A stretch of DNA of 64,000 bases from Escherichia phage vB_EcoM_DE16: sequence record OP595145.1; one strand, 5' to 3'. Positions 25,065 through 32,422 of this stretch are shown piece after piece (position 1 is the first letter of the stretch; every line of letters starts with the position of its first letter). The notes below the pieces were generated by a model. It saw only the letters and a program-made list of their open reading frames with translations, was not told the DNA's origin and searched no databases. Made by a program: the position numbers and the translations under genes.

Positions 25065-25139
25065 TGGCCCTGTAGCTCAATGGGAGAGCTGTCGGCTCAT
25101 AACCGATAGGTAGCTGGATCGAAACCAGCCAGGGCCACC
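25065..25139 (+). tRNA. tRNA, anticodon CAT (Ile2 lysidine-type or Met)
   Basis: manual cloverleaf: acceptor GGCCCTG/CAGGGCC, anticodon loop CTCATAA, T-loop, encoded CCA; resembles bacterial tRNA-Ile2. Confidence 0.7.
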
Positions 25140-25142
25140 AAC

Positions 25143-25217
25143 GTCTTTATGGTGTAATGGATAGCACAGGAGTCTTCTAAACTCTTAGTCAAGGTTCGAT
25201 TCCTTGTAAAGACACCA
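25143..25217 (+). tRNA. tRNA-Arg (anticodon TCT)
   Basis: acceptor GTCTTTA/TAAAGAC, anticodon loop CTTCTAA, T-loop GGTTCGATTCC, encoded CCA. Confidence 0.7.
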
Positions 25218-25413
25218 GAATATTTTAACATGAATTAGCTCAAGTGATTTGAACCCCACTACTGATCATGGTGGCAGAGAATGAGGCAAGTATGTCAGAC
25301 ATTATAAACAAAGGCCACGGTTATATTAGAAGACATAGACGCTCGAAGAGCACCGTTCGTGGAGAACGGGGGTTGGTGGAGTCACCATTCATGGTAAAAT
25401 GTTTTAAAAAACT

Positions 25414-25443
25414 ATTGACAACAAACATTATTTTATGTTAGAT
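25414..25443 (+). promoter_or_regulatory. sigma70-like promoter candidate (ACTATTGACA -35 box)
   Basis: TTGACA then 17 nt then TTAGAT, upstream of tRNA-Ser. Confidence 0.4.
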
Positions 25444-25451
25444 TATAAGTA

Positions 25452-25542
25452 TGGAAGGGCAAATCGACGTGGCGACGAAAACGGTCTTGAAAACCGCCGA
25501 GCTTGAAAGAGCCTTGGGAGTTCGACTCTCCCTCCTTCCGCC
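25452..25542 (+). tRNA. tRNA-Ser (anticodon TGA), class II
   Basis: anticodon loop CTTGAAA, long variable arm, T-arm GGGAGTTCGACTCTCCC, discriminator G, encoded CCA; D-arm fold is irregular. Confidence 0.6.
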
Positions 25543-25547
25543 AGATT

Positions 25548-25633
25548 AGGTAGATTGGTGAAATGGTAGCCACAACAGTTTGCTAAACTGTAGTCGGAAA
25601 CGGCGTGTAGGTTCGAGTCCTACATCTACCGCC
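25548..25633 (+). tRNA. tRNA-Ser (anticodon GCT), class II
   Basis: acceptor GGTAGAT/ATCTACC, anticodon loop TTGCTAA, variable-arm hairpin, discriminator G, CCA. Confidence 0.7.
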
Positions 25634-25763
25634 AAGTTCTTTTTAATATAGCTTACTTTAATAGAGTAAACTTTCGGCAGATGGCCTCCACCATCTTACC
25701 GATACTTCATAGTTAGTGGTGCGAACACTGGCTATTTTAAAAAGAATTTAAATACTAGCATTT

Positions 25764-25851
25764 AGGTGAGTTAATTCCGTAGGGGTAGCGGGGCAGACTG
25801 TAAATCTGTTATCATTGCGATTCGGGTGGTTCGACTCCATCACTCACCACC
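25764..25851 (+). tRNA. tRNA-Tyr (anticodon GTA), class II
   Basis: acceptor GGTGAGT/ACTCACC, anticodon loop CTGTAAA, long variable arm, discriminator A, CCA. Confidence 0.7.
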
Positions 25852-25857
25852 AAATTA

Positions 25858-25943
25858 AGATGAGTTGGCTGAATGGTTTAAGCGGCGGACTGTTAATCCG
25901 TGTTCGAAAGAACGATATAGGTTCAAATCCTATACTCATCGCC
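25858..25943 (+). tRNA. class II tRNA with anticodon GTT (Asn anticodon on a Ser/Tyr-type body); identity unresolved
   Basis: perfect 7-bp acceptor GATGAGT/ACTCATC, 3-bp D stem, anticodon stem GCGGA/TCCGT with loop CTGTTAA, 15-nt variable arm (GTTC-GAAA-GAAC), T-arm ATAGGTTCAAATCCTAT, discriminator G, CCA. Confidence 0.6.
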
Positions 25944-25950
25944 AGAATTA

Positions 25951-26027
25951 TGGACTTGTAGAGTTAAGGTAAACCCCCAGTCGCCAAGAGGCTTCTGGAA
26001 TTGCAGGTATCGAATCCTGCCGAGTCC
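25951..26027 (+). tRNA. tRNA-like element with aberrant D/anticodon arms (possible tRNA pseudogene)
   Basis: 7-bp acceptor GGACTTG/CGAGTCC and T-arm GCAGG-TATCGAAT-CCTGC (8-nt loop) but no 5-bp anticodon stem with 7-nt loop; no encoded CCA. Confidence 0.3.
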
Positions 26028-26033
26028 CAGCTT

Positions 26034-26108
26034 TGCTCCTATAGTATAATGGCTATTACAACGGTTTTGTAATCCGTGGATCTCTGTTCGATTCAGAGTG
26101 GGAGCACC
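26034..26108 (+). tRNA. tRNA-Thr (anticodon TGT)
   Basis: acceptor GCTCCTA/TGGGAGC, anticodon loop TTTGTAA, T-arm CTCTGTTCGATTCAGAG, CCA. Confidence 0.65.
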
Positions 26109-26608
26109 AACATAACAGGTAAGAACATTTAGGCTACTGAGAAATCATCCGAGGCAATCAGACCTATCTTCTGTTAAGTGTTCTTATCGTTGTGAAGAAA
26201 GCAAACTTATTGAATGTAAGCGGACGAAAGACATTCACTAACCTGTAGTAAGGTCGAGCCAAAGCGCGGTAATGAGTTCCGAGGTTAGTATTCACAACAC
26301 AACATTAAGAGCACTGTGATTGATCGTCGTATCCTGTGCACAAGGTCTGCTCGAAAGACAGTGTTCTTAGTATTGTGTTGATCACAAAAAGAGTTACCTG
26401 AAACTTGACCGGAGTAGGGTTGGATGGGGCAAAAGAAGAAGCGGCTCTCCCATCGACAGCAACGAAGAATAATATTTGACTTTGGTTTTGTATTATTTTA
26501 AGTTAGCTTACCGAACGTAGGGCTAGTCACCCAATGGGATACTCGTCACTGTCCCACTCAATAAAACTATTGACAACCAATAGTAAAATGTAGTATAGTA
26601 AAGATGTA
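26109..26608 (+). ncRNA. ORF-free, tRNA-free 0.5 kb spacer inside the tRNA cluster; structured ncRNA candidate
   Basis: no ORF of 60 aa or more on either strand, no T-loop motif; long-range complementary pairs AAGAACA/TGTTCTT and TTGTGAA/TTCACAA. Confidence 0.25.
26569..26598 (+). promoter_or_regulatory. sigma70-like promoter candidate (ACTATTGACA -35 box)
   Basis: TTGACA then 18 nt then TATAGT, upstream of tRNA-Gly. Confidence 0.45.
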
Positions 26609-26609
26609 G

Positions 26610-26683
26610 GGCGTTCTTGGTGTAGCGGTAGCATTCCGTCCTTCCAAGTCGGCGGCACGAGTTCGATCCTCGTAGAACGCTCC
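26610..26683 (+). tRNA. tRNA-Gly (anticodon TCC)
   Basis: acceptor GCGTTCT/AGAACGC, anticodon loop CTTCCAA, T-arm ACGAGTTCGATCCTCGT, CCA. Confidence 0.65.
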
Positions 26684-26781
26684 AAATTATTTAATAAAGG
26701 GTTGCCAGAAAACTTTCTCTTTTACTCATGGTTTTCTCCTTCTCTCACACCTCTTCTGGTTGCCCTTCATTAAATGATTTA

Positions 26782-26857
26782 TTGGTTTGTAGTGTAGTCA
26801 GGTAGCACACGACACTTTGACTGTCGTAGGTTTGGTTCAAATCCAGACAGACCAGCC
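26782..26857 (+). tRNA. tRNA-Gln (anticodon TTG)
   Basis: acceptor TGGTTTG/CAGACCA, anticodon stem-loop CGACA-CTTTGAC-TGTCG, T-loop TTCAAAT, CCA. Confidence 0.65.
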
Positions 26858-26862
26858 ATATA

Positions 26863-26939
26863 ACGGAATTTAGCTCAGTTTGGTAGAGTGTACGCTTTGG
26901 GAGCGTATTGTCGCAGGTTCGAATCCTGCAATTCCGACC
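26863..26939 (+). tRNA. tRNA-Pro (anticodon TGG)
   Basis: acceptor CGGAATT/AATTCCG, anticodon stem-loop TACGC-TTTGGGA-GCGTA, T-arm GCAGGTTCGAATCCTGC, CCA. Confidence 0.7.
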
Positions 26940-26945
26940 AATTAA

Positions 26946-27019
26946 ATGTTTCGTAGTTCAATGGTAGAACCCACGACTGATAATCGTGAGACACAAGTTC
27001 GATTCTTGTCGAAACAACC
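26946..27019 (+). tRNA. tRNA-Ile (anticodon GAT)
   Basis: acceptor TGTTTCG/CGAAACA, anticodon stem-loop CACGA-CTGATAA-TCGTG, T-arm, CCA. Confidence 0.7.
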
Positions 27020-27021
27020 AG

Positions 27022-27093
27022 TTTCCCGTTAGACTTACAGGATAAGAGTTCCACAGCTTATTGTGATGCTGGTTCGAATCCAGCACGGGATAC
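27022..27093 (+). tRNA. tRNA-like element lacking a canonical anticodon arm (pseudo-tRNA or non-canonical tRNA)
   Basis: good acceptor (TTCCCGT/ACGGGAT), D-arm and T-arm GCTGGTTCGAATCCAGC, but only 16 nt between D- and T-arms, forming CACAG/TTGTG stem with 4-6 nt loop; 3' end ACC not CCA. Confidence 0.3.
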
Positions 27094-27097
27094 CTAA

Positions 27098-27176
27098 TAG
27101 CGGGATAGAGGAGTCTGGTCGTCCTCGCCAGTTTCATATGCTGGAGATCATTGGTTCAAATCCAATTCCCGCCTCC
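27098..27176 (+). tRNA. tRNA-Met (anticodon CAT), possibly initiator-like
   Basis: anticodon stem-loop CCAGT-TTCATAT-GCTGG, T-loop TTCAAAT, acceptor AGCGGGA/TCCCGCC with A1:C72 mismatch, CCA. Confidence 0.6.
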
Positions 27177-27291
27177 AAATATCGCTTGCCAGCGGTATCT
27201 TTGAAGACCTTGCCTGGTTCCTTCTAAGATGGAGGGGTGCGACTCCTTAACGCACAATTATAATAAAGCATTTCAAATTAACAGTATTTAT

Positions 27292-28042: not shown

Positions 28043-28435
28043 ATGAATCTAAAGACTAAAACTGTATTAGGTTTTGTTTTAATTGTCGTTCTTATTCTTG
28101 CTGGAATGTTTGCTTATAACAAGATATATGAGTCTGGCTACAAAGATGGTGTTGCCTATCAAACGCAATTGTATCAAGCAGCCCAAGCAAAAGCAAAACA
28201 AGATTTTGATGTTCTTCAAAAAAGAGCAGATGAAGAAAGAGCATTATTAAATACTCAAATAAACAACTTGTCTAAAAACAATGCACAATTAAAAGCAGAT
28301 TTAGAGAAGAAGAAACAAACGATCAATGAGGATACAACGAATTATGCAAAAACTAATTCTGGTAGTATGTCTTGCTTTGCCCCTAATGATGACGGGTTGT
28401 TCATCATCAACAAAAGTTTCCCCAGTTCTTATTGA
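28043..28435 (+). CDS. i-spanin-like protein (N-terminal TM helix plus coiled coil)
   Basis: N-terminal hydrophobic helix VLGFVLIVVLILAGMFAY, then Q/K/A-rich coiled-coil; overlaps downstream lipoprotein gene. Confidence 0.45.
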   Translation: MNLKTKTVLGFVLIVVLILAGMFAYNKIYESGYKDGVAYQTQLYQAAQAKAKQDFDVLQKRADEERALLNTQINNLSKNNAQLKADLEKKKQTINEDTTNYAKTNSGSMSCFAPNDDGLFIINKSFPSSY

Positions 28436-28670
28436 TGAGTGTAAGGCTGTAGCCATAGAAAAGGTTAAAGGTCCAGATTCGGATTTGATGGATAAAGTAT
28501 CGACACCTGTGCCATACACTAAAAATCAAATTGCAAAAGGGGTTAGTAGATCTGAAGTTGTTAACAACCAAACTCAAAACAACGCTCTTTGGGAGCAAGA
28601 TAGACGAAAGGTTTTAGGTTTACAAACATATATTAAAACACTGCAAGAAAAAGGTATTATTGCTGAATAA
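28344..28670 (+). CDS. o-spanin-like outer-membrane lipoprotein
   Basis: signal peptide MQKLILVVCLALPLMMTGC with lipobox Cys; gene starts inside the preceding TM/coiled-coil gene in another frame. Confidence 0.45.
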   Translation: MQKLILVVCLALPLMMTGCSSSTKVSPVLIDECKAVAIEKVKGPDSDLMDKVSTPVPYTKNQIAKGVSRSEVVNNQTQNNALWEQDRRKVLGLQTYIKTLQEKGIIAE

Positions 28671-28679
28671 GGAGGGAAT

Positions 28680-30755
28680 GTGGCAAAGAAAAAGGCAGCA
28701 GGTAGTTTAGCTGGAGTAGATATTGAAGTAAAGGCTCAACCAGGTAAACAGACTCTTGCAATGGATTTAATGCCAGAAGTTATGATTTATGGTGGTGCCG
28801 CTGGATGTGTTTCTGCTGAAACGGAATATCTTACAAAAGATGGTTGGAGACAGATTAGTGAATATTCGGGAGAGGATATTTACCAATACAACCCTAAGAA
28901 TAAGCGTTTAGAATTGGTAACACCTTATTTTGTAGAATACGATTTAAATGGAGATAACCTATACAGAATAACAAATGGTGTAGGATTGTTCCAAGAACTT
29001 AGTATGGAACACCGTTTTGTATTCTATAAGAAAAAGAAATCAAAGAAACATTTCGAGATTCTTGTAGGAGATCTTATTGCATTACAGCAAATAGGAAAAC
29101 CACTGCAAGGTTATGTAGAAAATCCATTCGGTAAACGTGTTCCTTTTAACATACCTGGTAAAAAGAGCACTTACTTAAAAATACACGAGGTTATTTCAAC
29201 AGATGATAAGAAATATTGTTTTGAGACTCCAAGCAGTTATATTGTCTTTAGACGTGGCGATCACTGCTTCGTTACTGGGAATAGCGGCAAGTCTCGTCTG
29301 CTATTGCTGAAAGCTTTAAAATACGCCTACAAAGACCCTTTGTTTGGTGGAATACTTTTCCGTAAGAACACCACTGCTCACCGTAAACCAGGTGGTCTGT
29401 TTACAGAAGCAAAACGTTTGTATCTTCCTTTACAACCTCACGTAAAAGAAAGTACAATGGATATCATTTTTGAAGCCACTGGTGGCGGAACCCTCAAATT
29501 TGACCATTTGGAAAACGATAACGTAACCGCAGAAACAAACCATCAGGGTACACAGTATTCAATGGTAGGTTTTGACGAGTTAACCCACTTCACACAGTAT
29601 GAAATGCTCTATCTTCTGGGACGTATGCGTTCAGAGTCAGAAACAAGTTTCATGTTGTGCACATGTAACCCTGACGCAGATAGTTGGGTTTTGAATTGGG
29701 TGTTACCTTATCTTGATGAGGGTGGTTATCCTAGAGAAGATATGTGTGGTAAACAAAAATATTTCATCATTGTTAACGATGAACCTGTTTTTGCTGACAC
29801 ACCTGAAGAACTGAAAGAAAAATATCCAGAAAACTGTTTCATGGAAAACCCTAATACAGGGGAGACAGTTGTTATTGAACCACAAACTTTCGTATTTATT
29901 GGTGGGACAATATTTGATAACCCAGAACTCATTAGGCTTAACCCTAATTACTTAGCACAGCTTAAATCACAAACAGCGATCAAAAGAGCACAGCTTCTGG
30001 ACGGTTGTTGGTTTGCACGTATCCAGAAAGAATCTTTCTTTCAACGTGAATGGTTACATAAAATATCTTATAAAGATGTTCCTAACAATCTTAAACTAAT
30101 GCGAGCATGGGATAAAGCTGTTTCAGTTCCTACAGAAACTTATCGTTATCCAGACTATACAACATCTGTCAAAATGGGTAAAGACCAAGATGGTAATATC
30201 TACATCTTTGGCGACTATGATTATGATGCTGTGGATGAGAAAAGTAAAATTTTCGGAAGGTTTCGAAGACTACCTGGGGAAAGGGATAACCTGATTCTAA
30301 ATCAATGTAAGATTGATGGACCAGAAGTTACAGTAGTTCTTCCTAAAGACCCATCTGGTGCTGGGACAATAGAATATACAGAATCTGCAAAGAAACTTAT
30401 TCTAGAGGGTTTTGTTGTTAAACCAGATGCTATGCCAGGCAACAAGAAAAAGCTTCAGCGTTTTATGCCTTTTAGTAGTGCGTGTCAAAACGGTTTTGTT
30501 TATATTGTTGAAGATTCTTTCCCTAATGTGGAAACTCTAACCCACTTTTATAAAGAATTGGAATCTTTCAATGGTGAAAGATCTACAGCCACTATTAAAG
30601 ATGACATTCCCGATGCTGCTGCTTCTTGTTTTAATACTCTGTCAAAAGAGAATACTTTCAAGGCAGTAGCTATCCCTACAACAACAAATGCTCCTACAGG
30701 ATACAGTAGAATGAACAGTGGATTCCACCAACCGTATAGTGTCCGTAAAAGATAA
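28680..30755 (+). CDS. terminase large subunit (intein-containing precursor)
   Basis: 691 aa, GTG start after AAGGAGGG; Walker B-like VGFDE, C-terminal nuclease DPSGAG motif; Walker A split by insertion (see 28806..29282). Confidence 0.65.
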   Translation: MAKKKAAGSLAGVDIEVKAQPGKQTLAMDLMPEVMIYGGAAGCVSAETEYLTKDGWRQISEYSGEDIYQYNPKNKRLELVTPYFVEYDLNGDNLYRITNGVGLFQELSMEHRFVFYKKKKSKKHFEILVGDLIALQQIGKPLQGYVENPFGKRVPFNIPGKKSTYLKIHEVISTDDKKYCFETPSSYIVFRRGDHCFVTGNSGKSRLLLLKALKYAYKDPLFGGILFRKNTTAHRKPGGLFTEAKRLYLPLQPHVKESTMDIIFEATGGGTLKFDHLENDNVTAETNHQGTQYSMVGFDELTHFTQYEMLYLLGRMRSESETSFMLCTCNPDADSWVLNWVLPYLDEGGYPREDMCGKQKYFIIVNDEPVFADTPEELKEKYPENCFMENPNTGETVVIEPQTFVFIGGTIFDNPELIRLNPNYLAQLKSQTAIKRAQLLDGCWFARIQKESFFQREWLHKISYKDVPNNLKLMRAWDKAVSVPTETYRYPDYTTSVKMGKDQDGNIYIFGDYDYDAVDEKSKIFGRFRRLPGERDNLILNQCKIDGPEVTVVLPKDPSGAGTIEYTESAKKLILEGFVVKPDAMPGNKKKLQRFMPFSSACQNGFVYIVEDSFPNVETLTHFYKELESFNGERSTATIKDDIPDAAASCFNTLSKENTFKAVAIPTTTNAPTGYSRMNSGFHQPYSVRKR
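28806..29282 (+). mobile_element. mini-intein (Hint domain, 159 codons) inserted in the terminase Walker A loop
   Basis: starts CVSAETEYLTKDGW (block A-like), SMEHRFVF (block B-like), ends CFVTGN before Ser +1; removal gives YGGAAG-SGKS P-loop; no homing-endonuclease domain. Confidence 0.55.
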
Positions 30756-30856: not shown

Positions 30857-32422
30857 GTGTCAACAGGAAAAAGAACGTACACTAAAAAGTCAGAATACTG
30901 GGACAAAGGTGCTGCAAATAAAGCTGCTCTCTCTCCAACAAAAGAAGCAGAGAAAGAGAAAACGTTACTCCTGTCACCTGAAATAGGAACGATCGGATTA
31001 AACTCAATCAAAGCATTTACGAATTTCATGCAACCCTATGAGACTCGTTTCCCAGAATGTATTCGAACTTTTAAAGAGATGGGTGAAGACCCTGATGTAG
31101 CTACTGCTCTTGATGCTACGTATATCTTTGTAGATAGAGCATTCTTTGATTTTAAGATAAAATACAATGTAAGCTCGGCAAAGTCAAGAAAAGCTGCTAA
31201 GTTTATTGATTATATGTTACGTAATATGCAAGCCCCTCTACGTCAATATGTTAGATCACTTTTGACATATAAGCAATACGGGTTTGCATTTGCAGAAAAA
31301 GTTTATGAGTTGGATGAAGATCCTAAGAGTCCTTACTTTGGGTATTGGCGATTAACTAAGCTGGCTTTTAGGCCACAAGATACTCTTCACATGGCTCAAC
31401 CTTTTACATATTCGGCAGACGGACGTTCTATCTTGTCTGTTAACCAGAATATCACCAATACAATGTTAGCACCAGGTAATACGACTTTAGAAACTGGTAT
31501 TAAAGAAATTCCTTTTAGTAAAGTTTTATTTGTCGGTAGCAACATTACAGAGAATAACCCACTAGGAGTTAGTCCGCTTTTAGCTGTATATCGTAGCTGG
31601 CGTGAAAAATCTCTTATTCAGGAATTTGAGGTTATTGGGGTATCTAAAGATTTAGGTGGTATGCCAGTTCTTAAGGTTCCAAGTGACATTCTAAACAGGG
31701 CATCTTTAGATCCTGCTGGGGATGAAGCACAATCTCTTCGAGTTCTCCAAGCCAACATCGCTAACCTTCACTCTGGTGAGCAAGCCTACATGGTATTGCC
31801 TTCAGACGTTTATGAAGGTACAGTGATGCGTCAATACGATCTTGTATTCCAAGGTGTTGATGGCACGGGTAAACAGTTTGACACTCAAGCACTAATCAAA
31901 CAACGTAAACTGGATATTTATAACCGCTTTGGTGCGGGTGTGTTGATTATGGGTGATGGTGATGCAGGAAGTTTTGCGCTTTCTGACAACAAACAAACAC
32001 TATTGTCTCATTTTATTGAGCGAGATGTAGATATTGTTGTAGAAGCTATAAACTCTCAACTGATCCCTCAAACACTACGACTAAACAATATCTTCCTTTC
32101 TGATGAAGATATGCCTAAGTTTGTCAGTGGTGAAATGGGTGATCCTGATATTGAAGTAAATGCTAAAGCTATTCAGCAGTTGGTAGCCTCTGGTGCAATA
32201 CCTTTAACCCCAGAAGTTATTAACGAGTTCCTTGAAAAAATTGGTTTTGAATATCGCATCCCTGACGATATTGTTGCCAATAAAGAGAAATTCTTTGAAT
32301 TCATGGATAACTATATGCCTGACAAAACTTCACGATCAGGAGATGGTTTAGCTACAGCGGGAACTGGAACGTCTGATACTGTTTCTGCTTTAGATCCTTC
32401 AGCACAAAACCTGTCGAATTAA
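30857..32422 (+). CDS. portal protein (putative)
   Basis: 521 aa ORF immediately after terminase large subunit; GTG start with GGAGGAA RBS; assignment by position and size. Confidence 0.5.
   Translation: MSTGKRTYTKKSEYWDKGAANKAALSPTKEAEKEKTLLLSPEIGTIGLNSIKAFTNFMQPYETRFPECIRTFKEMGEDPDVATALDATYIFVDRAFFDFKIKYNVSSAKSRKAAKFIDYMLRNMQAPLRQYVRSLLTYKQYGFAFAEKVYELDEDPKSPYFGYWRLTKLAFRPQDTLHMAQPFTYSADGRSILSVNQNITNTMLAPGNTTLETGIKEIPFSKVLFVGSNITENNPLGVSPLLAVYRSWREKSLIQEFEVIGVSKDLGGMPVLKVPSDILNRASLDPAGDEAQSLRVLQANIANLHSGEQAYMVLPSDVYEGTVMRQYDLVFQGVDGTGKQFDTQALIKQRKLDIYNRFGAGVLIMGDGDAGSFALSDNKQTLLSHFIERDVDIVVEAINSQLIPQTLRLNNIFLSDEDMPKFVSGEMGDPDIEVNAKAIQQLVASGAIPLTPEVINEFLEKIGFEYRIPDDIVANKEKFFEFMDNYMPDKTSRSGDGLATAGTGTSDTVSALDPSAQNLSN

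What the first reader, a model, noticed from the sequence alone, without database searches (positions are those of the whole stretch)
28806..29282. Mini-intein splitting the Walker A P-loop of the large terminase
The terminase ORF is about 160 aa longer than expected at its N-terminus. The insert begins with Cys in CVSAETEYLTKDGWRQISE (intein block A pattern), has SMEHRFVF (block B-like T/SxxH), and ends CFVTGN immediately before Ser. Excising codons 43-201 joins YGGAAG to SGKS, recreating a canonical terminase P-loop. The penultimate residue is Gly rather than the usual His, and no homing-endonuclease domain is present.
Basis: partly seen in the sequence, partly recalled or inferred. Interest (0 to 1): 0.6.

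Follow-up and report, generated by a model that had tools for sequence, protein, structure and literature searches.

The report
Unannotated mini-intein in phage terminase
The large terminase gene of this phAPEC8/phi92-like coliphage is interrupted, in the middle of its ATP-binding loop, by a 159-residue self-splicing protein element (a mini-intein) that standard domain databases miss and that no GenBank record checked annotates. Its closest characterised relative is an unusual class 3 intein.

Summary
ORF 28680-30755 (+) encodes a 691-aa TerL in which codons 43-201 (nt 28806-29282) separate YGGAAG from SGKS.

- Pfam and NCBIfam Hint/intein models give no hit.
- A profile of 29 homologous inserts hits a solved intein (6zgq, AceL NrdHF, E 1.5e-11).
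- An AlphaFold model (pLDDT 93) matches only HINT domains, with 6zgq best (TM 0.71/0.73).
- Insert-free TerL homologues read GGAAGSGKS.
- HEN-bearing (~300-330 aa) and HEN-less versions sit at the same site in a patchy pattern.
- The same element occurs in RtcB, DNA polymerase, primase-helicase and RecD-like helicase genes.
- Among 183 family copies, Cys1, block-B His and the terminal Asn are invariant, and the +1 residue is always Ser, Cys or Thr.

The penultimate Gly is the family norm (180/183). It has experimental precedent: AceL NrdHF ends TGN|S, and a block-B Arg compensates for the missing His.

One twist remains. This intein also carries the class 3 hallmarks (Cys at block F:4, Thr at G:5) alongside Cys1, so the initiating nucleophile is unresolved. 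Splicing itself is inferred, not shown.

It is fixed across Stephanstirmvirinae and under purifying selection. I rate it a new member of a known kind, of moderate interest.

The parts
28670..28675 (+). Shine-Dalgarno AGGAGG for the TerL precursor gene
   Evidence: Read directly. The same motif is annotated for phi92 gene 119.
28680..30755 (+). TerL precursor gene: 691 codons plus stop, 78.7 kDa. The ligated product would be 532 aa (60.1 kDa) and the free intein 18.6 kDa.
   Evidence: ORF list. Pfam Terminase_6N E 5e-17. 99.9% identical to annotated TerL of Phapecoctavirus phages. Masses.
28680..28805 (+). N-extein (codons 1-42). It ends with the first half of Walker A, G39-A-A-G42 (28794-28805).
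   Evidence: Alignment with intein-free homologues.
28806..29282 (+). Mini-intein, 159 aa, Cys1 to Asn159, with no homing endonuclease.
28806..28847 (+). Block A (CVSAETEYLTKDGW). In the family, Cys1 is 183/183, Thr6 170/183, Glu7 174/183, Gly13 174/183 and Trp14 167/183.
29001..29018 (+). Block B core S66-M-E-H69-R70-F71, i.e. B:7 Ser, B:10 His (invariant), B:11 Arg and B:12 Phe (not Trp).
   Evidence: It corresponds to S65, H68, R69 and M70 of the AceL NrdHF intein (PMC7891396).
29208..29255 (+). Block F region KKYCFETPSSYIVFRR. Cys138 (29217-29219) sits at the F:4 position, Pro142 at F:4+4, and Arg149 is near-invariant.
   Evidence: Cys is 181/183 and Arg 177/183 in the family. The model has a strand at 136-140. 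Spacing to the terminal Asn is 21 residues, against 22 in AceL NrdHF (C124 to N146), which also has Pro at +4.
29262..29282 (+). Block G HCFVTGN: Thr157 (G:5), Gly158 (G:6, where most inteins have His) and Asn159 (G:7).
   Evidence: Read directly. In the family, TGN or SGN is 165/183, Gly 180/183 and Asn 183/183.
29283..30755 (+). C-extein. It starts with Ser+1 (29283-29285) of S-G-K-S (29283-29294), the second half of Walker A, followed by the rest of the ATPase domain and the nuclease domain.

Best explanation
Nucleotides 28806-29282 encode an active, cis-splicing, endonuclease-less mini-intein inserted between Gly42 and Ser202 of TerL. That position lies inside the Walker A P-loop (G-A-A-G | S-G-K-S).

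Proposed events. The gene is translated as a 78.7-kDa precursor that cannot bind ATP. The HINT-fold insert then excises itself as an 18.6-kDa protein and joins the flanks through a native peptide bond. This yields a 60.1-kDa TerL with an intact GAAGSGKS loop.

Proposed chemistry.
1. A thioester forms at the Gly42-Cys1 bond. It is activated by block B His69 and Ser66 and held by Thr157.
2. The N-extein is transferred to the side chain of Ser+1.
3. Asn159 cyclises. Arg70 (B:11) stands in for the missing penultimate His, as shown for the related AceL NrdHF intein.
4. An O-to-N acyl shift completes the peptide bond.

What is undecided is the nucleophile that opens step 1. Cys1 would make it class 1, which I slightly favour at about 50%. 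Cys138 at block F:4 would make it class 3, as in AceL NrdHF, at about 25-30%. The remainder is both acting in relay or redundantly.

History. The element descends from a large family of LAGLIDADG-bearing homing inteins that target the residue before [S/C/T]GK[S/T] in phage ATPases. In the ancestor of Stephanstirmvirinae it lost the endonuclease and became fixed, and it is now kept intact because any loss of splicing would kill DNA packaging.

Shown here: the anatomy, fold, homology, distribution and selection. Inferred: the splicing itself and every chemical step.
For: - Junctions: insert-free TerL homologues (P0019-21 at 61-62% identity; P0035, P0063, P0095) read GG(A/S)AGSGKS with no gap. 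Excision makes the Pfam Terminase_6N match contiguous and stronger.
- Sequence homology to inteins: a profile of 29 inserts hits 6zgq AceL NrdHF intein at E 1.5e-11. It then hits PolII, TFIIB, RecA, DnaB and gp41-1 inteins and a BIL domain weakly.
- Fold: the AF2 model has pLDDT 93.1 and pTM 0.86. All 50 top Foldseek hits against the PDB are HINT domains, best 6zgq with TM 0.71/0.73 and E 5e-7.
- Mobile-element behaviour: at this same TerL site there are 146-, 149-, 158/159-, 246- and 301-328-aa versions. One of the large ones has a weak LAGLIDADG_3 hit. On the extein tree the large ones sit singly next to intein-free sisters, and the 146-aa clade contains nested intein-free members.
- Other host proteins: the same family interrupts RtcB (VGVDIG|C...TGN|CGM), DNA polymerase (DIH|C...TGN|S), gp4-like primase-helicases and a RecD-like helicase, and a PhoH-like PHROG.
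- Catalytic residues in 183 full-length copies: Cys1 183, His B:10 183, Cys F:4 181, Gly G:6 180, Asn 183; +1 is Ser 105, Cys 50, Thr 28.
- Precedent for TGN: AceL NrdHF ends T144-G145-N146|S and splices within minutes. G145H abolishes its activity, and Arg69 (B:11) contacts the C-scissile carbonyl (PMC7891396). The window intein has the equivalent Arg70.
- Selection: intein dN/dS is 0.05-0.10 between the window, phi92, Klebsiella and Citrobacter phages. Amino-acid identity is 80-87%, against 86-89% for the extein.
- Necessity: each phage record has only one TerL match, and these are viable, plaque-forming isolates.
Against: - No experiment shows splicing of this protein.
- Pfam and NCBIfam intein/Hint models give no hit on this insert or on any relative tested.
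- The residue-level assignment of Cys138 to block F:4 rests on motif spacing, the predicted strand, and parallels with AceL NrdHF. It does not rest on a printed structural superposition. A profile of the C-terminal 50 residues alone found no intein, and hhalign to two canonical inteins aligned only block A.
- dS is saturated, so the dN/dS values are rough.
- Within the window's own clade the insert is universal, which on its own would also fit a fixed domain.
Confidence: 0.9

Rival explanations
1. Exapted, non-splicing HINT-fold domain. The insert stays in the mature terminase as a permanent lineage-specific domain, for example regulatory or interaction-related, and TerL works with it in place.
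For: The insert is present in every one of about 130 Stephanstirmvirinae genomes. It is under purifying selection as strong as the extein's. It has no endonuclease, and no Hint HMM recognises it.
Against: It lies between the fourth and fifth residues of GxxxxGK[ST], a tight phosphate-binding loop. Insert-free homologues have the loop intact. All residues needed only for splicing (Cys1, His B:10, terminal Asn, +1 Ser) are retained, and they are invariant in copies residing in unrelated proteins. Purifying selection is expected anyway for an intein in an essential site. Kelley et al. [quoted passage not shown]
Confidence: 0.05
2. Decayed intein that only cleaves, at the N- or C-terminal junction, or splices very poorly. 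The terminase would then be made as fragments or at low yield, possibly as a brake on packaging.
For: It lacks the penultimate His and the F:13 His, which usually drive Asn cyclisation (PMC7891396). Converting a class 1 intein to a WCT-type active site gave cleavage rather than splicing (PMC7664689).
Against: The N-extein fragment of 42 residues carries half of Walker A and could not function separately. AceL NrdHF has the same 'defects' and still splices to near completion, with barely detectable side cleavage. The compensating Arg70 is present. Strong conservation argues for full function.
Confidence: 0.04
3. Chance resemblance or annotation artefact. For example, the true start codon lies downstream of the insert, and the upstream part is untranslated or a separate gene.
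For: Some metagenomic homologues are called from downstream starts (for example P0062 and P0060).
Against: The reading frame is continuous with a strong RBS at 28670-28675. The N-extein QPGKQ...IYGGAAG is conserved in intein-free homologues, and a protein starting after the insert would lack half of Walker A. Profile and fold statistics also exclude chance.
Confidence: 0.01

Closest known systems
AceL NrdHF intein (PDB 6zgq; Hoffmann et al. 2021, PMC7891396), a naturally split class 3 intein from an Antarctic phage-like contig
   Same: It is the best sequence-profile hit (E 1.5e-11) and the best structural hit (TM 0.71/0.73). It has the same set of unusual residues: block B S-x-x-H-R with a hydrophobic non-Trp at B:12, Cys at F:4 with Pro four residues later, no His at F:13, a C-terminal T-G-N, and Ser+1. 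It is of similar size (146 aa against 159 aa) and also comes from a phage.
   Different: AceL NrdHF is split into two genes, starts with Ala1 and sits in ribonucleotide reductase. The window intein is contiguous, starts with an invariant Cys1 and sits in TerL. Sequence identity in the structural alignment is only 19%.
Mycobacteriophage TerL inteins (Kelley et al. 2016, PMC5050341)
   Same: These are inteins in the ATPase domain of phage large terminases, some in the Walker A P-loop. Both class 1 and class 3 types occur, with and without endonucleases. They have been shown to splice and, where a HEN is present, to cleave intein-less alleles.
   Different: The host-protein families and sites differ. 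Their P-loop sites are in Terminase_1 proteins, the 'classic' one lying between Lys and Thr of GK|T, and their Terminase_6 intein is in the C-motif. This one is in a Terminase_6-type TerL, three residues earlier (G|SGKS). The hosts are Gram-negative enterobacteria. The intein lineage is also different: it ends TGN and is invisible to Pfam.
Class 3 (WCT) inteins, e.g. MP-Be DnaB, Msm/Mch DnaB-1 (PMC2807308, PMC7664689)
   Same: Cys at F:4, Thr at G:5 and His at B:10 are the residues that form the Cys-His-Thr triad of class 3 inteins. The +1 residue is Ser, which is typical of class 3. A phage origin has been proposed for the class.
   Different: [quoted passage not shown] This one has Cys1, Phe at B:12 and Gly at G:6.
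Canonical class 1 mini-inteins, e.g. Npu DnaE, gp41-1, Ssp DnaB mini, Mtu RecA mini
   Same: They share the HINT fold, Cys1, block B (T/S)xxH, the terminal Asn, a +1 nucleophile, a size of about 130-170 aa and the lack of an endonuclease.
   Different: Canonical ones usually have Asp at F:4 and His-Asn at the C terminus and are found by Pfam and SMART models. This one has Cys at F:4 and Gly-Asn, and it is not found by them.

Membership tests
Intein (protein-splicing HINT domain) | HINT (Hedgehog/intein) fold | tested here: met
   AF2 model has pLDDT 93.1. All 50 top Foldseek PDB hits are inteins, BIL or Hedgehog domains, best 6zgq with TM 0.71/0.73.
Intein (protein-splicing HINT domain) | In-frame insertion in a conserved site of a host protein, with intein-free alleles in which the motif is contiguous | tested here: met
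   GGAAG|SGKS is contiguous in P0019-21, P0035, P0063 and P0095. The Pfam match becomes contiguous after excision.
Intein (protein-splicing HINT domain) | Splice-junction residues: N-terminal Cys/Ser (or class 2/3 substitute), block B (T/S)xxH, C-terminal Asn, and +1 Cys/Ser/Thr | tested here: met
   Cys1, Ser66..His69, Asn159 and Ser+1 are present. They are invariant in 29 TerL copies and 183 family copies.
Intein (protein-splicing HINT domain) | Penultimate His (block G:6); common but not obligatory | tested here: not met
   Gly158. Gly is 180/183 in the family. AceL NrdHF has Gly145 and G145H is inactive. PMC2807308 notes that some inteins use other residues.
Intein (protein-splicing HINT domain) | Match to curated intein/Hint profile HMMs | tested here: not met
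   No Pfam or NCBIfam hit, even at E up to 10. A family profile against PDB sequences does find inteins.
Intein (protein-splicing HINT domain) | Same element found in unrelated host proteins (mobility) | tested here: met
   Found in RtcB, PolA, primase-helicase, RecD-like helicase and a PhoH-like protein.
Intein (protein-splicing HINT domain) | Demonstrated excision and extein ligation | not testable with these tools
   Needs expression with SDS-PAGE/MS, or proteomics of infected cells.
Mini-intein (no homing endonuclease) | Splicing domain only, about 130-200 aa, with no HEN domain in frame, out of frame or antisense | tested here: met
   The insert is 159 aa and the model is a single compact domain. 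It has no LAGLIDADG or HNH hit, and no other ORF of 60 aa or more lies across it.
Class 3 inteins | No Cys/Ser/Thr nucleophile at intein position 1 | tested here: not met
   Cys1 is invariant. Hoffmann et al. define their class 3 set as lacking Cys at position 1. PMC2807308 notes that three WCT inteins starting with Ser1 or Cys1 were still to be classified.
Class 3 inteins | Cys at block F (C2) position 4 | tested here: met
   Cys138 in K-Y-C-F lies on predicted strand 136-140, 21 residues before Asn159, against 22 in AceL NrdHF. It is 181/183 in the family. Caveat: the position is assigned by motif and spacing, not by a printed residue-level superposition.
Class 3 inteins | Trp at block B (N3) position 12 | tested here: not met
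   Phe71 here. The family has V, M, I, F or L, with Trp in only 2/183. AceL NrdHF also deviates, with Met70.
Class 3 inteins | Thr at block G (C1) position 5 | tested here: met
   Thr157 here. The family has Thr 134 and Ser 34 of 183.
Class 3 inteins | Block F branched thioester intermediate; F:4 Cys obligatory and residue 1 dispensable | not testable with these tools
   Needs C1A, C138A and C138S mutants and detection of a thiol-labile intermediate.
Class 1 inteins | N-terminal Cys/Ser that initiates an N-S/O acyl shift | tested here: inconclusive
   Cys1 is present and invariant, and two family members with Ser at F:4 keep Cys1. Whether Cys1 is the acting nucleophile cannot be read from sequence.
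Bacterial intein-like (BIL) domains | HINT domains in non-conserved regions of variable, often secreted proteins, frequently without a +1 nucleophile, giving cleavage rather than splicing | tested here: not met
   This insert sits in the most conserved motif of an essential enzyme and has Ser+1 and a terminal Asn. BIL structures are weaker fold hits than 6zgq.
Terminase large subunit, Terminase_6 type (host protein) | N-terminal ATPase with Walker A plus a C-terminal RNaseH-like nuclease | tested here: met
   After excision: Pfam Terminase_6N E 4e-19 and a weak Terminase_6C match. phrog_979 E 1e-216.

The most novel reading that the evidence does not exclude
This intein and its large, unrecognised 'Cys1 ... 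Y-C-F ... T-G-N' family may be mechanistic hybrids between class 1 and class 3.

Under this reading both Cys1 and Cys138 (F:4) take part. They could act as a thioester relay (Cys1 to Cys138 to Ser+1), as redundant initiating nucleophiles, or as a Cys1-Cys138 disulfide that makes terminase maturation, and hence DNA packaging, redox-conditional.

The proven class 3 AceL NrdHF intein (Ala1) would then be a derivative of this family. That would make the family a living intermediate in the class 1 to class 3 transition that Tori and Perler proposed took place in phages.
Probability: 0.25. Interest if true: 0.75.

Novelty: new member of a known kind. Interest (0 to 1): 0.5.

Why it matters
1. Annotation. 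phi92, phAPEC8, ESCO5 and more than 130 related therapeutic-candidate coliphages carry an intein in an essential gene. No GenBank record examined annotates it, and Pfam and NCBIfam cannot see it. A 2024 paper states that no inteins have been reported in E. coli or coliphages (PMC11162368).

2. Scope. The profile built here retrieves 3,361 protein clusters at E up to 1e-10 and more than 12,000 at E up to 1e-3. The top hits are phage ATPases, polymerases and RNA ligases, so a substantial part of intein diversity may be missed by standard pipelines.

3. Mechanism. The family combines the class 1 nucleophile with the class 3 triad. It is the closest relative found here of the one 'unusual' class 3 intein studied in detail, so simple mutagenesis could show how the two mechanisms interconvert.

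4. Tools. This is a 159-aa contiguous intein that must work in E. coli at 37 degrees C. It needs only Ser at +1 and Gly at -1, and its closest characterised relative splices fast and cleanly. That makes it an attractive candidate for protein engineering.

5. Biology. Terminase maturation depends on a post-translational step that could in principle be conditional.

Tried and rejected
- Pfam and NCBIfam scans of the insert, the whole protein and six homologous inserts found no Hint or intein family. The only related signal was a weak LAGLIDADG_3 hit (E 0.0076) in one 323-aa relative.
- phmmer of the single insert against PDB sequences found nothing meaningful.
- A profile of only the C-terminal 50 residues against the PDB hit just toxin/cell-wall-binding repeats, through a 'DGKKY.F' resemblance that I judge to be chance. 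It gave no residue-level alignment of blocks F and G to a solved intein.
- Model coordinates are not exposed to scripts, so distances among Cys1, Cys138, His69 and Thr157 could not be measured.
- I considered whether residues about 80-115 (HFEILVGDLIALQQIG...) are a remnant of the first LAGLIDADG helix, because MAFFT aligns them with ...EGELRLQVAVMADG... of the large relatives. I rejected this as unsupported. From general knowledge, a segment of this kind ('...L..GD.v..') is a usual part of HINT domains after block B. The PolII intein alignment matches it, and the model places it in the compact domain at pLDDT above 90.
- A search for a second copy of the intein in the window found none.
- Tori & Perler 2011 and Brace et al. 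2010, which tested WCT inteins beginning with Ser1 or Cys1, are not held in the library. Their results could not be cited.
- Literature searches for an intein report in phAPEC8, phi92 or Stephanstirmvirinae found none.
Full report
**1. What is in the sequence**

The window comes from a Phapecoctavirus-like coliphage. The ORF at 28680-30755 (+) is 99.9% identical at the protein level to the large terminase of ESCO5, nieznany, Mt1B1_P17 and dozens of other phAPEC8-like phages.

- The ORF starts at GTG, five bases after AGGAGG, and encodes 691 residues.
- Codon 43 is Cys (28806-28808), preceded by ...VMIYGGAAG.
- Codon 201 is Asn (29280-29282), preceded by ...HCFVTG and followed by SGKS.
- Pfam sees Terminase_6N only from residue 202, starting at profile position 8.

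**2. Standard domain tests fail, but a family profile and the fold do not**

The insert alone, the full protein and six homologous inserts give no hit to any Hint or intein model in Pfam or NCBIfam. A single-sequence search of PDB sequences is also empty.

I then collected homologues and aligned 29 inserts whose identity to the window's falls to 24% (alignment A2).

- A profile of that alignment hits the solved AceL NrdHF intein (6zgq) at E 1.5e-11.
- Below it come PolII, TFIIB, RecA, DnaB and gp41-1 inteins and a BIL domain.
- An AlphaFold model built on the same alignment is confident (pLDDT 93.1, pTM 0.86). It is nearly all beta with one short helix.
- Foldseek against the PDB returns only HINT domains in the top 50. 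6zgq is first (TM 0.71/0.73, E 5e-7), followed by Hedgehog C-terminal domains, Prp8, CDC21, DnaB, DnaE and RecA inteins and BIL domains.

**3. Comparative anatomy of the site**

- The nearest insert-free terminases (P0019-P0021, 61-62% identity, from contigs of up to 145-153 kb) read IYGGAAGSGKS with no gap. More distant ones (P0035, P0063, P0095) do the same.
- Removing codons 43-201 in silico makes the Terminase_6N match contiguous over profile 1-214. The score rises from 62.7 to 69.6 bits. The Terminase_3 match also extends across the P-loop.
- Other homologues carry inserts of 146, 149, 246 and 301-328 aa at exactly this position. All begin with Cys after GG(A/S)AG and end (T/S)GN before SGKS.
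- One of the long ones has a weak LAGLIDADG_3 match, and related long copies in other proteins pass Pfam's LAGLIDADG_3 threshold.
- On a neighbour-joining tree of the exteins, the long endonuclease-bearing versions are scattered singly beside insert-free sisters. Examples are P0027 beside P0061 and P0030 beside P0076.
- The 146-aa version forms a Vibrio-phage clade with insert-free members nested inside it (P0063 beside P0033; P0074).
- The 158/159-aa version is present in all 16 members of the window's clade, whose sister group is insert-free.

This is the presence/absence pattern expected of a homing intein. Here it has twice lost its endonuclease and has once become fixed.

**4. The same element in other genes**

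tblastn with the insert alone finds it in all Stephanstirmvirinae at 79-100% identity. These include phAPEC8, phi92, and Klebsiella and Citrobacter relatives.

At lower identity it also appears inside other proteins:
- DNA polymerase of Acinetobacter phage ME3...PNDIH|CLSLDTEILTKDGW...VWCVTVPSSYIIIRRHSCVSVTGN|SINA.
- RtcB ligase of Corynebacterium phage Lederberg...VGVDIG|CVDADTEYLTPTGWK...KAYCFTVTTGFLVLRRSGNVFITGN|CGM.
- RtcB of a Pseudomonas jumbo phage.
- TerL of coliphage 19-1-2, which carries a long version at the same P-loop site.

An exhaustive profile search of 1.84 billion cluster representatives gave 12,183 proteins at E up to 1e-3, 3,361 at E up to 1e-10 and 186 at E up to 1e-30. 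Matches occur at all positions in proteins of 283-2602 aa, with up to six copies per protein. Sampled hosts are gp4-like primase-helicases and a RecD-like helicase, and again Pfam reports no Hint domain in them.

In 183 full-length copies from the top 150 proteins:
- Residue 1 is Cys in 183.
- The last residue is Asn in 183.
- The +1 residue is Ser in 105, Cys in 50 and Thr in 28.
- The -1 residue is Gly in 110, very often directly in front of [S/C/T]GK[S/T].
- The median length is 315 aa, and only 9 copies are under 200 aa.

One caveat applies: these copies were selected by a profile that already carries those residues. Even so, a non-splicing terminase domain would not be found in RtcB and polymerases with conserved splice-junction residues.

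**5. Selection and necessity**

Between the window, phi92, a Klebsiella phage and Citrobacter phage Tr1, the intein shows dN/dS of 0.05-0.10. Its amino-acid identity is 80-87%, against 86-89% for the extein. dS is saturated, so the ratios are approximate.

Each phage record has a single TerL locus. The insert lies inside GxxxxGK[ST], so I infer that the precursor cannot bind ATP and that splicing is obligatory for packaging. Kelley et al. argued the same for mycobacteriophage TerL inteins and showed that five tested ones splice (PMC5050341). Intein GC content is slightly below that of the extein (34.2% against 38.8%).

**6. The penultimate Gly and the mechanistic class**

The AceL NrdHF intein has these properties (PMC7891396):
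- It ends T144-G145-N146|S and lacks both the F:13 His and the penultimate His.
- It still splices with a half-time of about 4 minutes and little side cleavage.
- G145H abolishes its activity because the His would clash with Arg69 (block B:11). Arg69 hydrogen-bonds the C-scissile carbonyl, and R69A slows splicing.

The window intein has the same arrangement. S66-x-x-H69-R70-F71 corresponds to S65-x-x-H68-R69-M70. Cys138 with Pro142 corresponds to C124 with P128. T157-G158-N159|S corresponds to T144-G145-N146|S.

AceL NrdHF is a proven class 3 intein. C124 at block F:4 makes the first thioester, C124A and C124S are dead, and residue 1 is Ala. In class 3 inteins the F:4 Cys, B:10 His and G:5 Thr form a protease-like triad (PMC7664689; PMC2807308). 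The window intein has all three of these residues, but it also has Cys1, which is invariant across the family.

The evidence cuts both ways:
- For class 1: Cys1 is completely conserved in a family in which position 1 would be free to drift if unused. The two copies with Ser at F:4 (both in P0149) keep Cys1.
- For class 3: Cys at F:4 is 181/183, where class 1 inteins usually have Asp. Thr or Ser occupies G:5. The nearest characterised relative uses this route.
- Trp at B:12, the third class 3 hallmark, is absent, as it also is in AceL NrdHF.

I therefore call it an intein with high confidence, leave the class open, and give class 1 initiation a slight edge. The papers that tested WCT inteins beginning with Ser1 or Cys1 were not available.

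**7. What is known and what is new**

Already known:
- Inteins in phage terminase ATPase domains, including P-loops (PMC5050341).
- RtcB/tRNA-ligase inteins in actinophages, listed in a 2025 preprint.

Not reported, as far as I could find:
- This intein in Stephanstirmvirinae. GenBank records for phi92 and the BASEL phage JohannJBalmer annotate only 'terminase large subunit'. The other hits carry only terminase or 'hypothetical protein' labels under the match, or no annotation.
- Literature searches found nothing, and a 2024 paper states that inteins have not been reported in E. coli or coliphages.
- The insertion point (G|SGKS in a Terminase_6-type TerL) differs from the sites catalogued in mycobacteriophages.

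It is therefore a new, unannotated member of a known kind. It belongs to a large lineage that standard HMMs miss, and its mix of catalytic residues is worth a mutagenesis study.

**8. Verdict**

| Question | Result |
|---|---|
| Observation | Confirmed |
| Interpretation | Supported |
| Confidence that this is an active mini-intein | About 0.9 |
| Non-splicing domain | About 0.05 |
| Cleavage-only relic | About 0.04 |
| Artefact | About 0.01 |
| Interest | 0.5 |

The interest score reflects an unsurprising kind of element, offset by an unrecognised family, a presence in well-studied phages, and an open class 1 versus class 3 question that is directly testable.

Noticed in passing
window 28043-28435 (+) and 28326-28670 (+): Two overlapping out-of-frame ORFs lie directly upstream of TerL. 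The first (130 aa) has an N-terminal transmembrane stretch. The second (114 aa) has a lipoprotein-like signal (...LPLMMTGCSSS). They look like an i-spanin/o-spanin pair, and the same order is annotated in BASEL phage JohannJBalmer.
   Followed up: partly
window 25066-27177 (+): A cluster of ten tRNA genes (Met, Arg, Ser, Asn, Thr, Gly, Gln, Pro, Ile, Met) lies about 1.5 kb upstream of the terminase gene. phi92 has a similar cluster in the same position.
   Followed up: no
window 30857-32422 (+): A 521-aa ORF lies immediately downstream of TerL. It corresponds in position to the annotated portal protein of phi92 and JohannJBalmer.
   Followed up: no
L003 (Escherichia phage 19-1-2) 1911-3257, 3497-3913, 3970-4213: This Vequintavirinae-like coliphage carries the long, endonuclease-bearing version of the same intein at the same P-loop site. 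Its TerL is annotated as two separate CDSs followed by an HNH homing endonuclease gene, which suggests a second interruption of the terminase gene or an assembly or annotation break.
   Followed up: no
P0149 (metagenomic protein, 1460 aa), intein copies at 34-364 and 456-792: These are the only two of 183 family copies with Ser instead of Cys at block F:4 (GKIYSLTVP, GKVYSVVVP). Both keep Cys1. If they are functional, Cys1 can act as the nucleophile in this family.
   Followed up: partly
P0124 (2602 aa), P0167 (2583 aa), P0171, P0178 and others: Metagenomic proteins carry three to six copies of this intein family, in places only a few residues apart, for example ...SGN|SGYQ|CHDE... in P0124. 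The host proteins were not identified.
   Followed up: no
window 28806-29282: The intein is slightly more AT-rich than its host gene, with GC of 34.2% against 38.8% for the extein and 39.1% for the window. It has a third Cys (Cys154, HCFVTGN), seen only in the window's closest relatives (P0001/P0002 group).
   Followed up: partly
A2 columns for intein residues 75-82: A lysine-rich stretch, YKKKKSKKHF, is strictly conserved within the Stephanstirmvirinae mini-intein but absent from the 146-aa and long versions. Its role is unknown. The model gives it high confidence.
   Followed up: no
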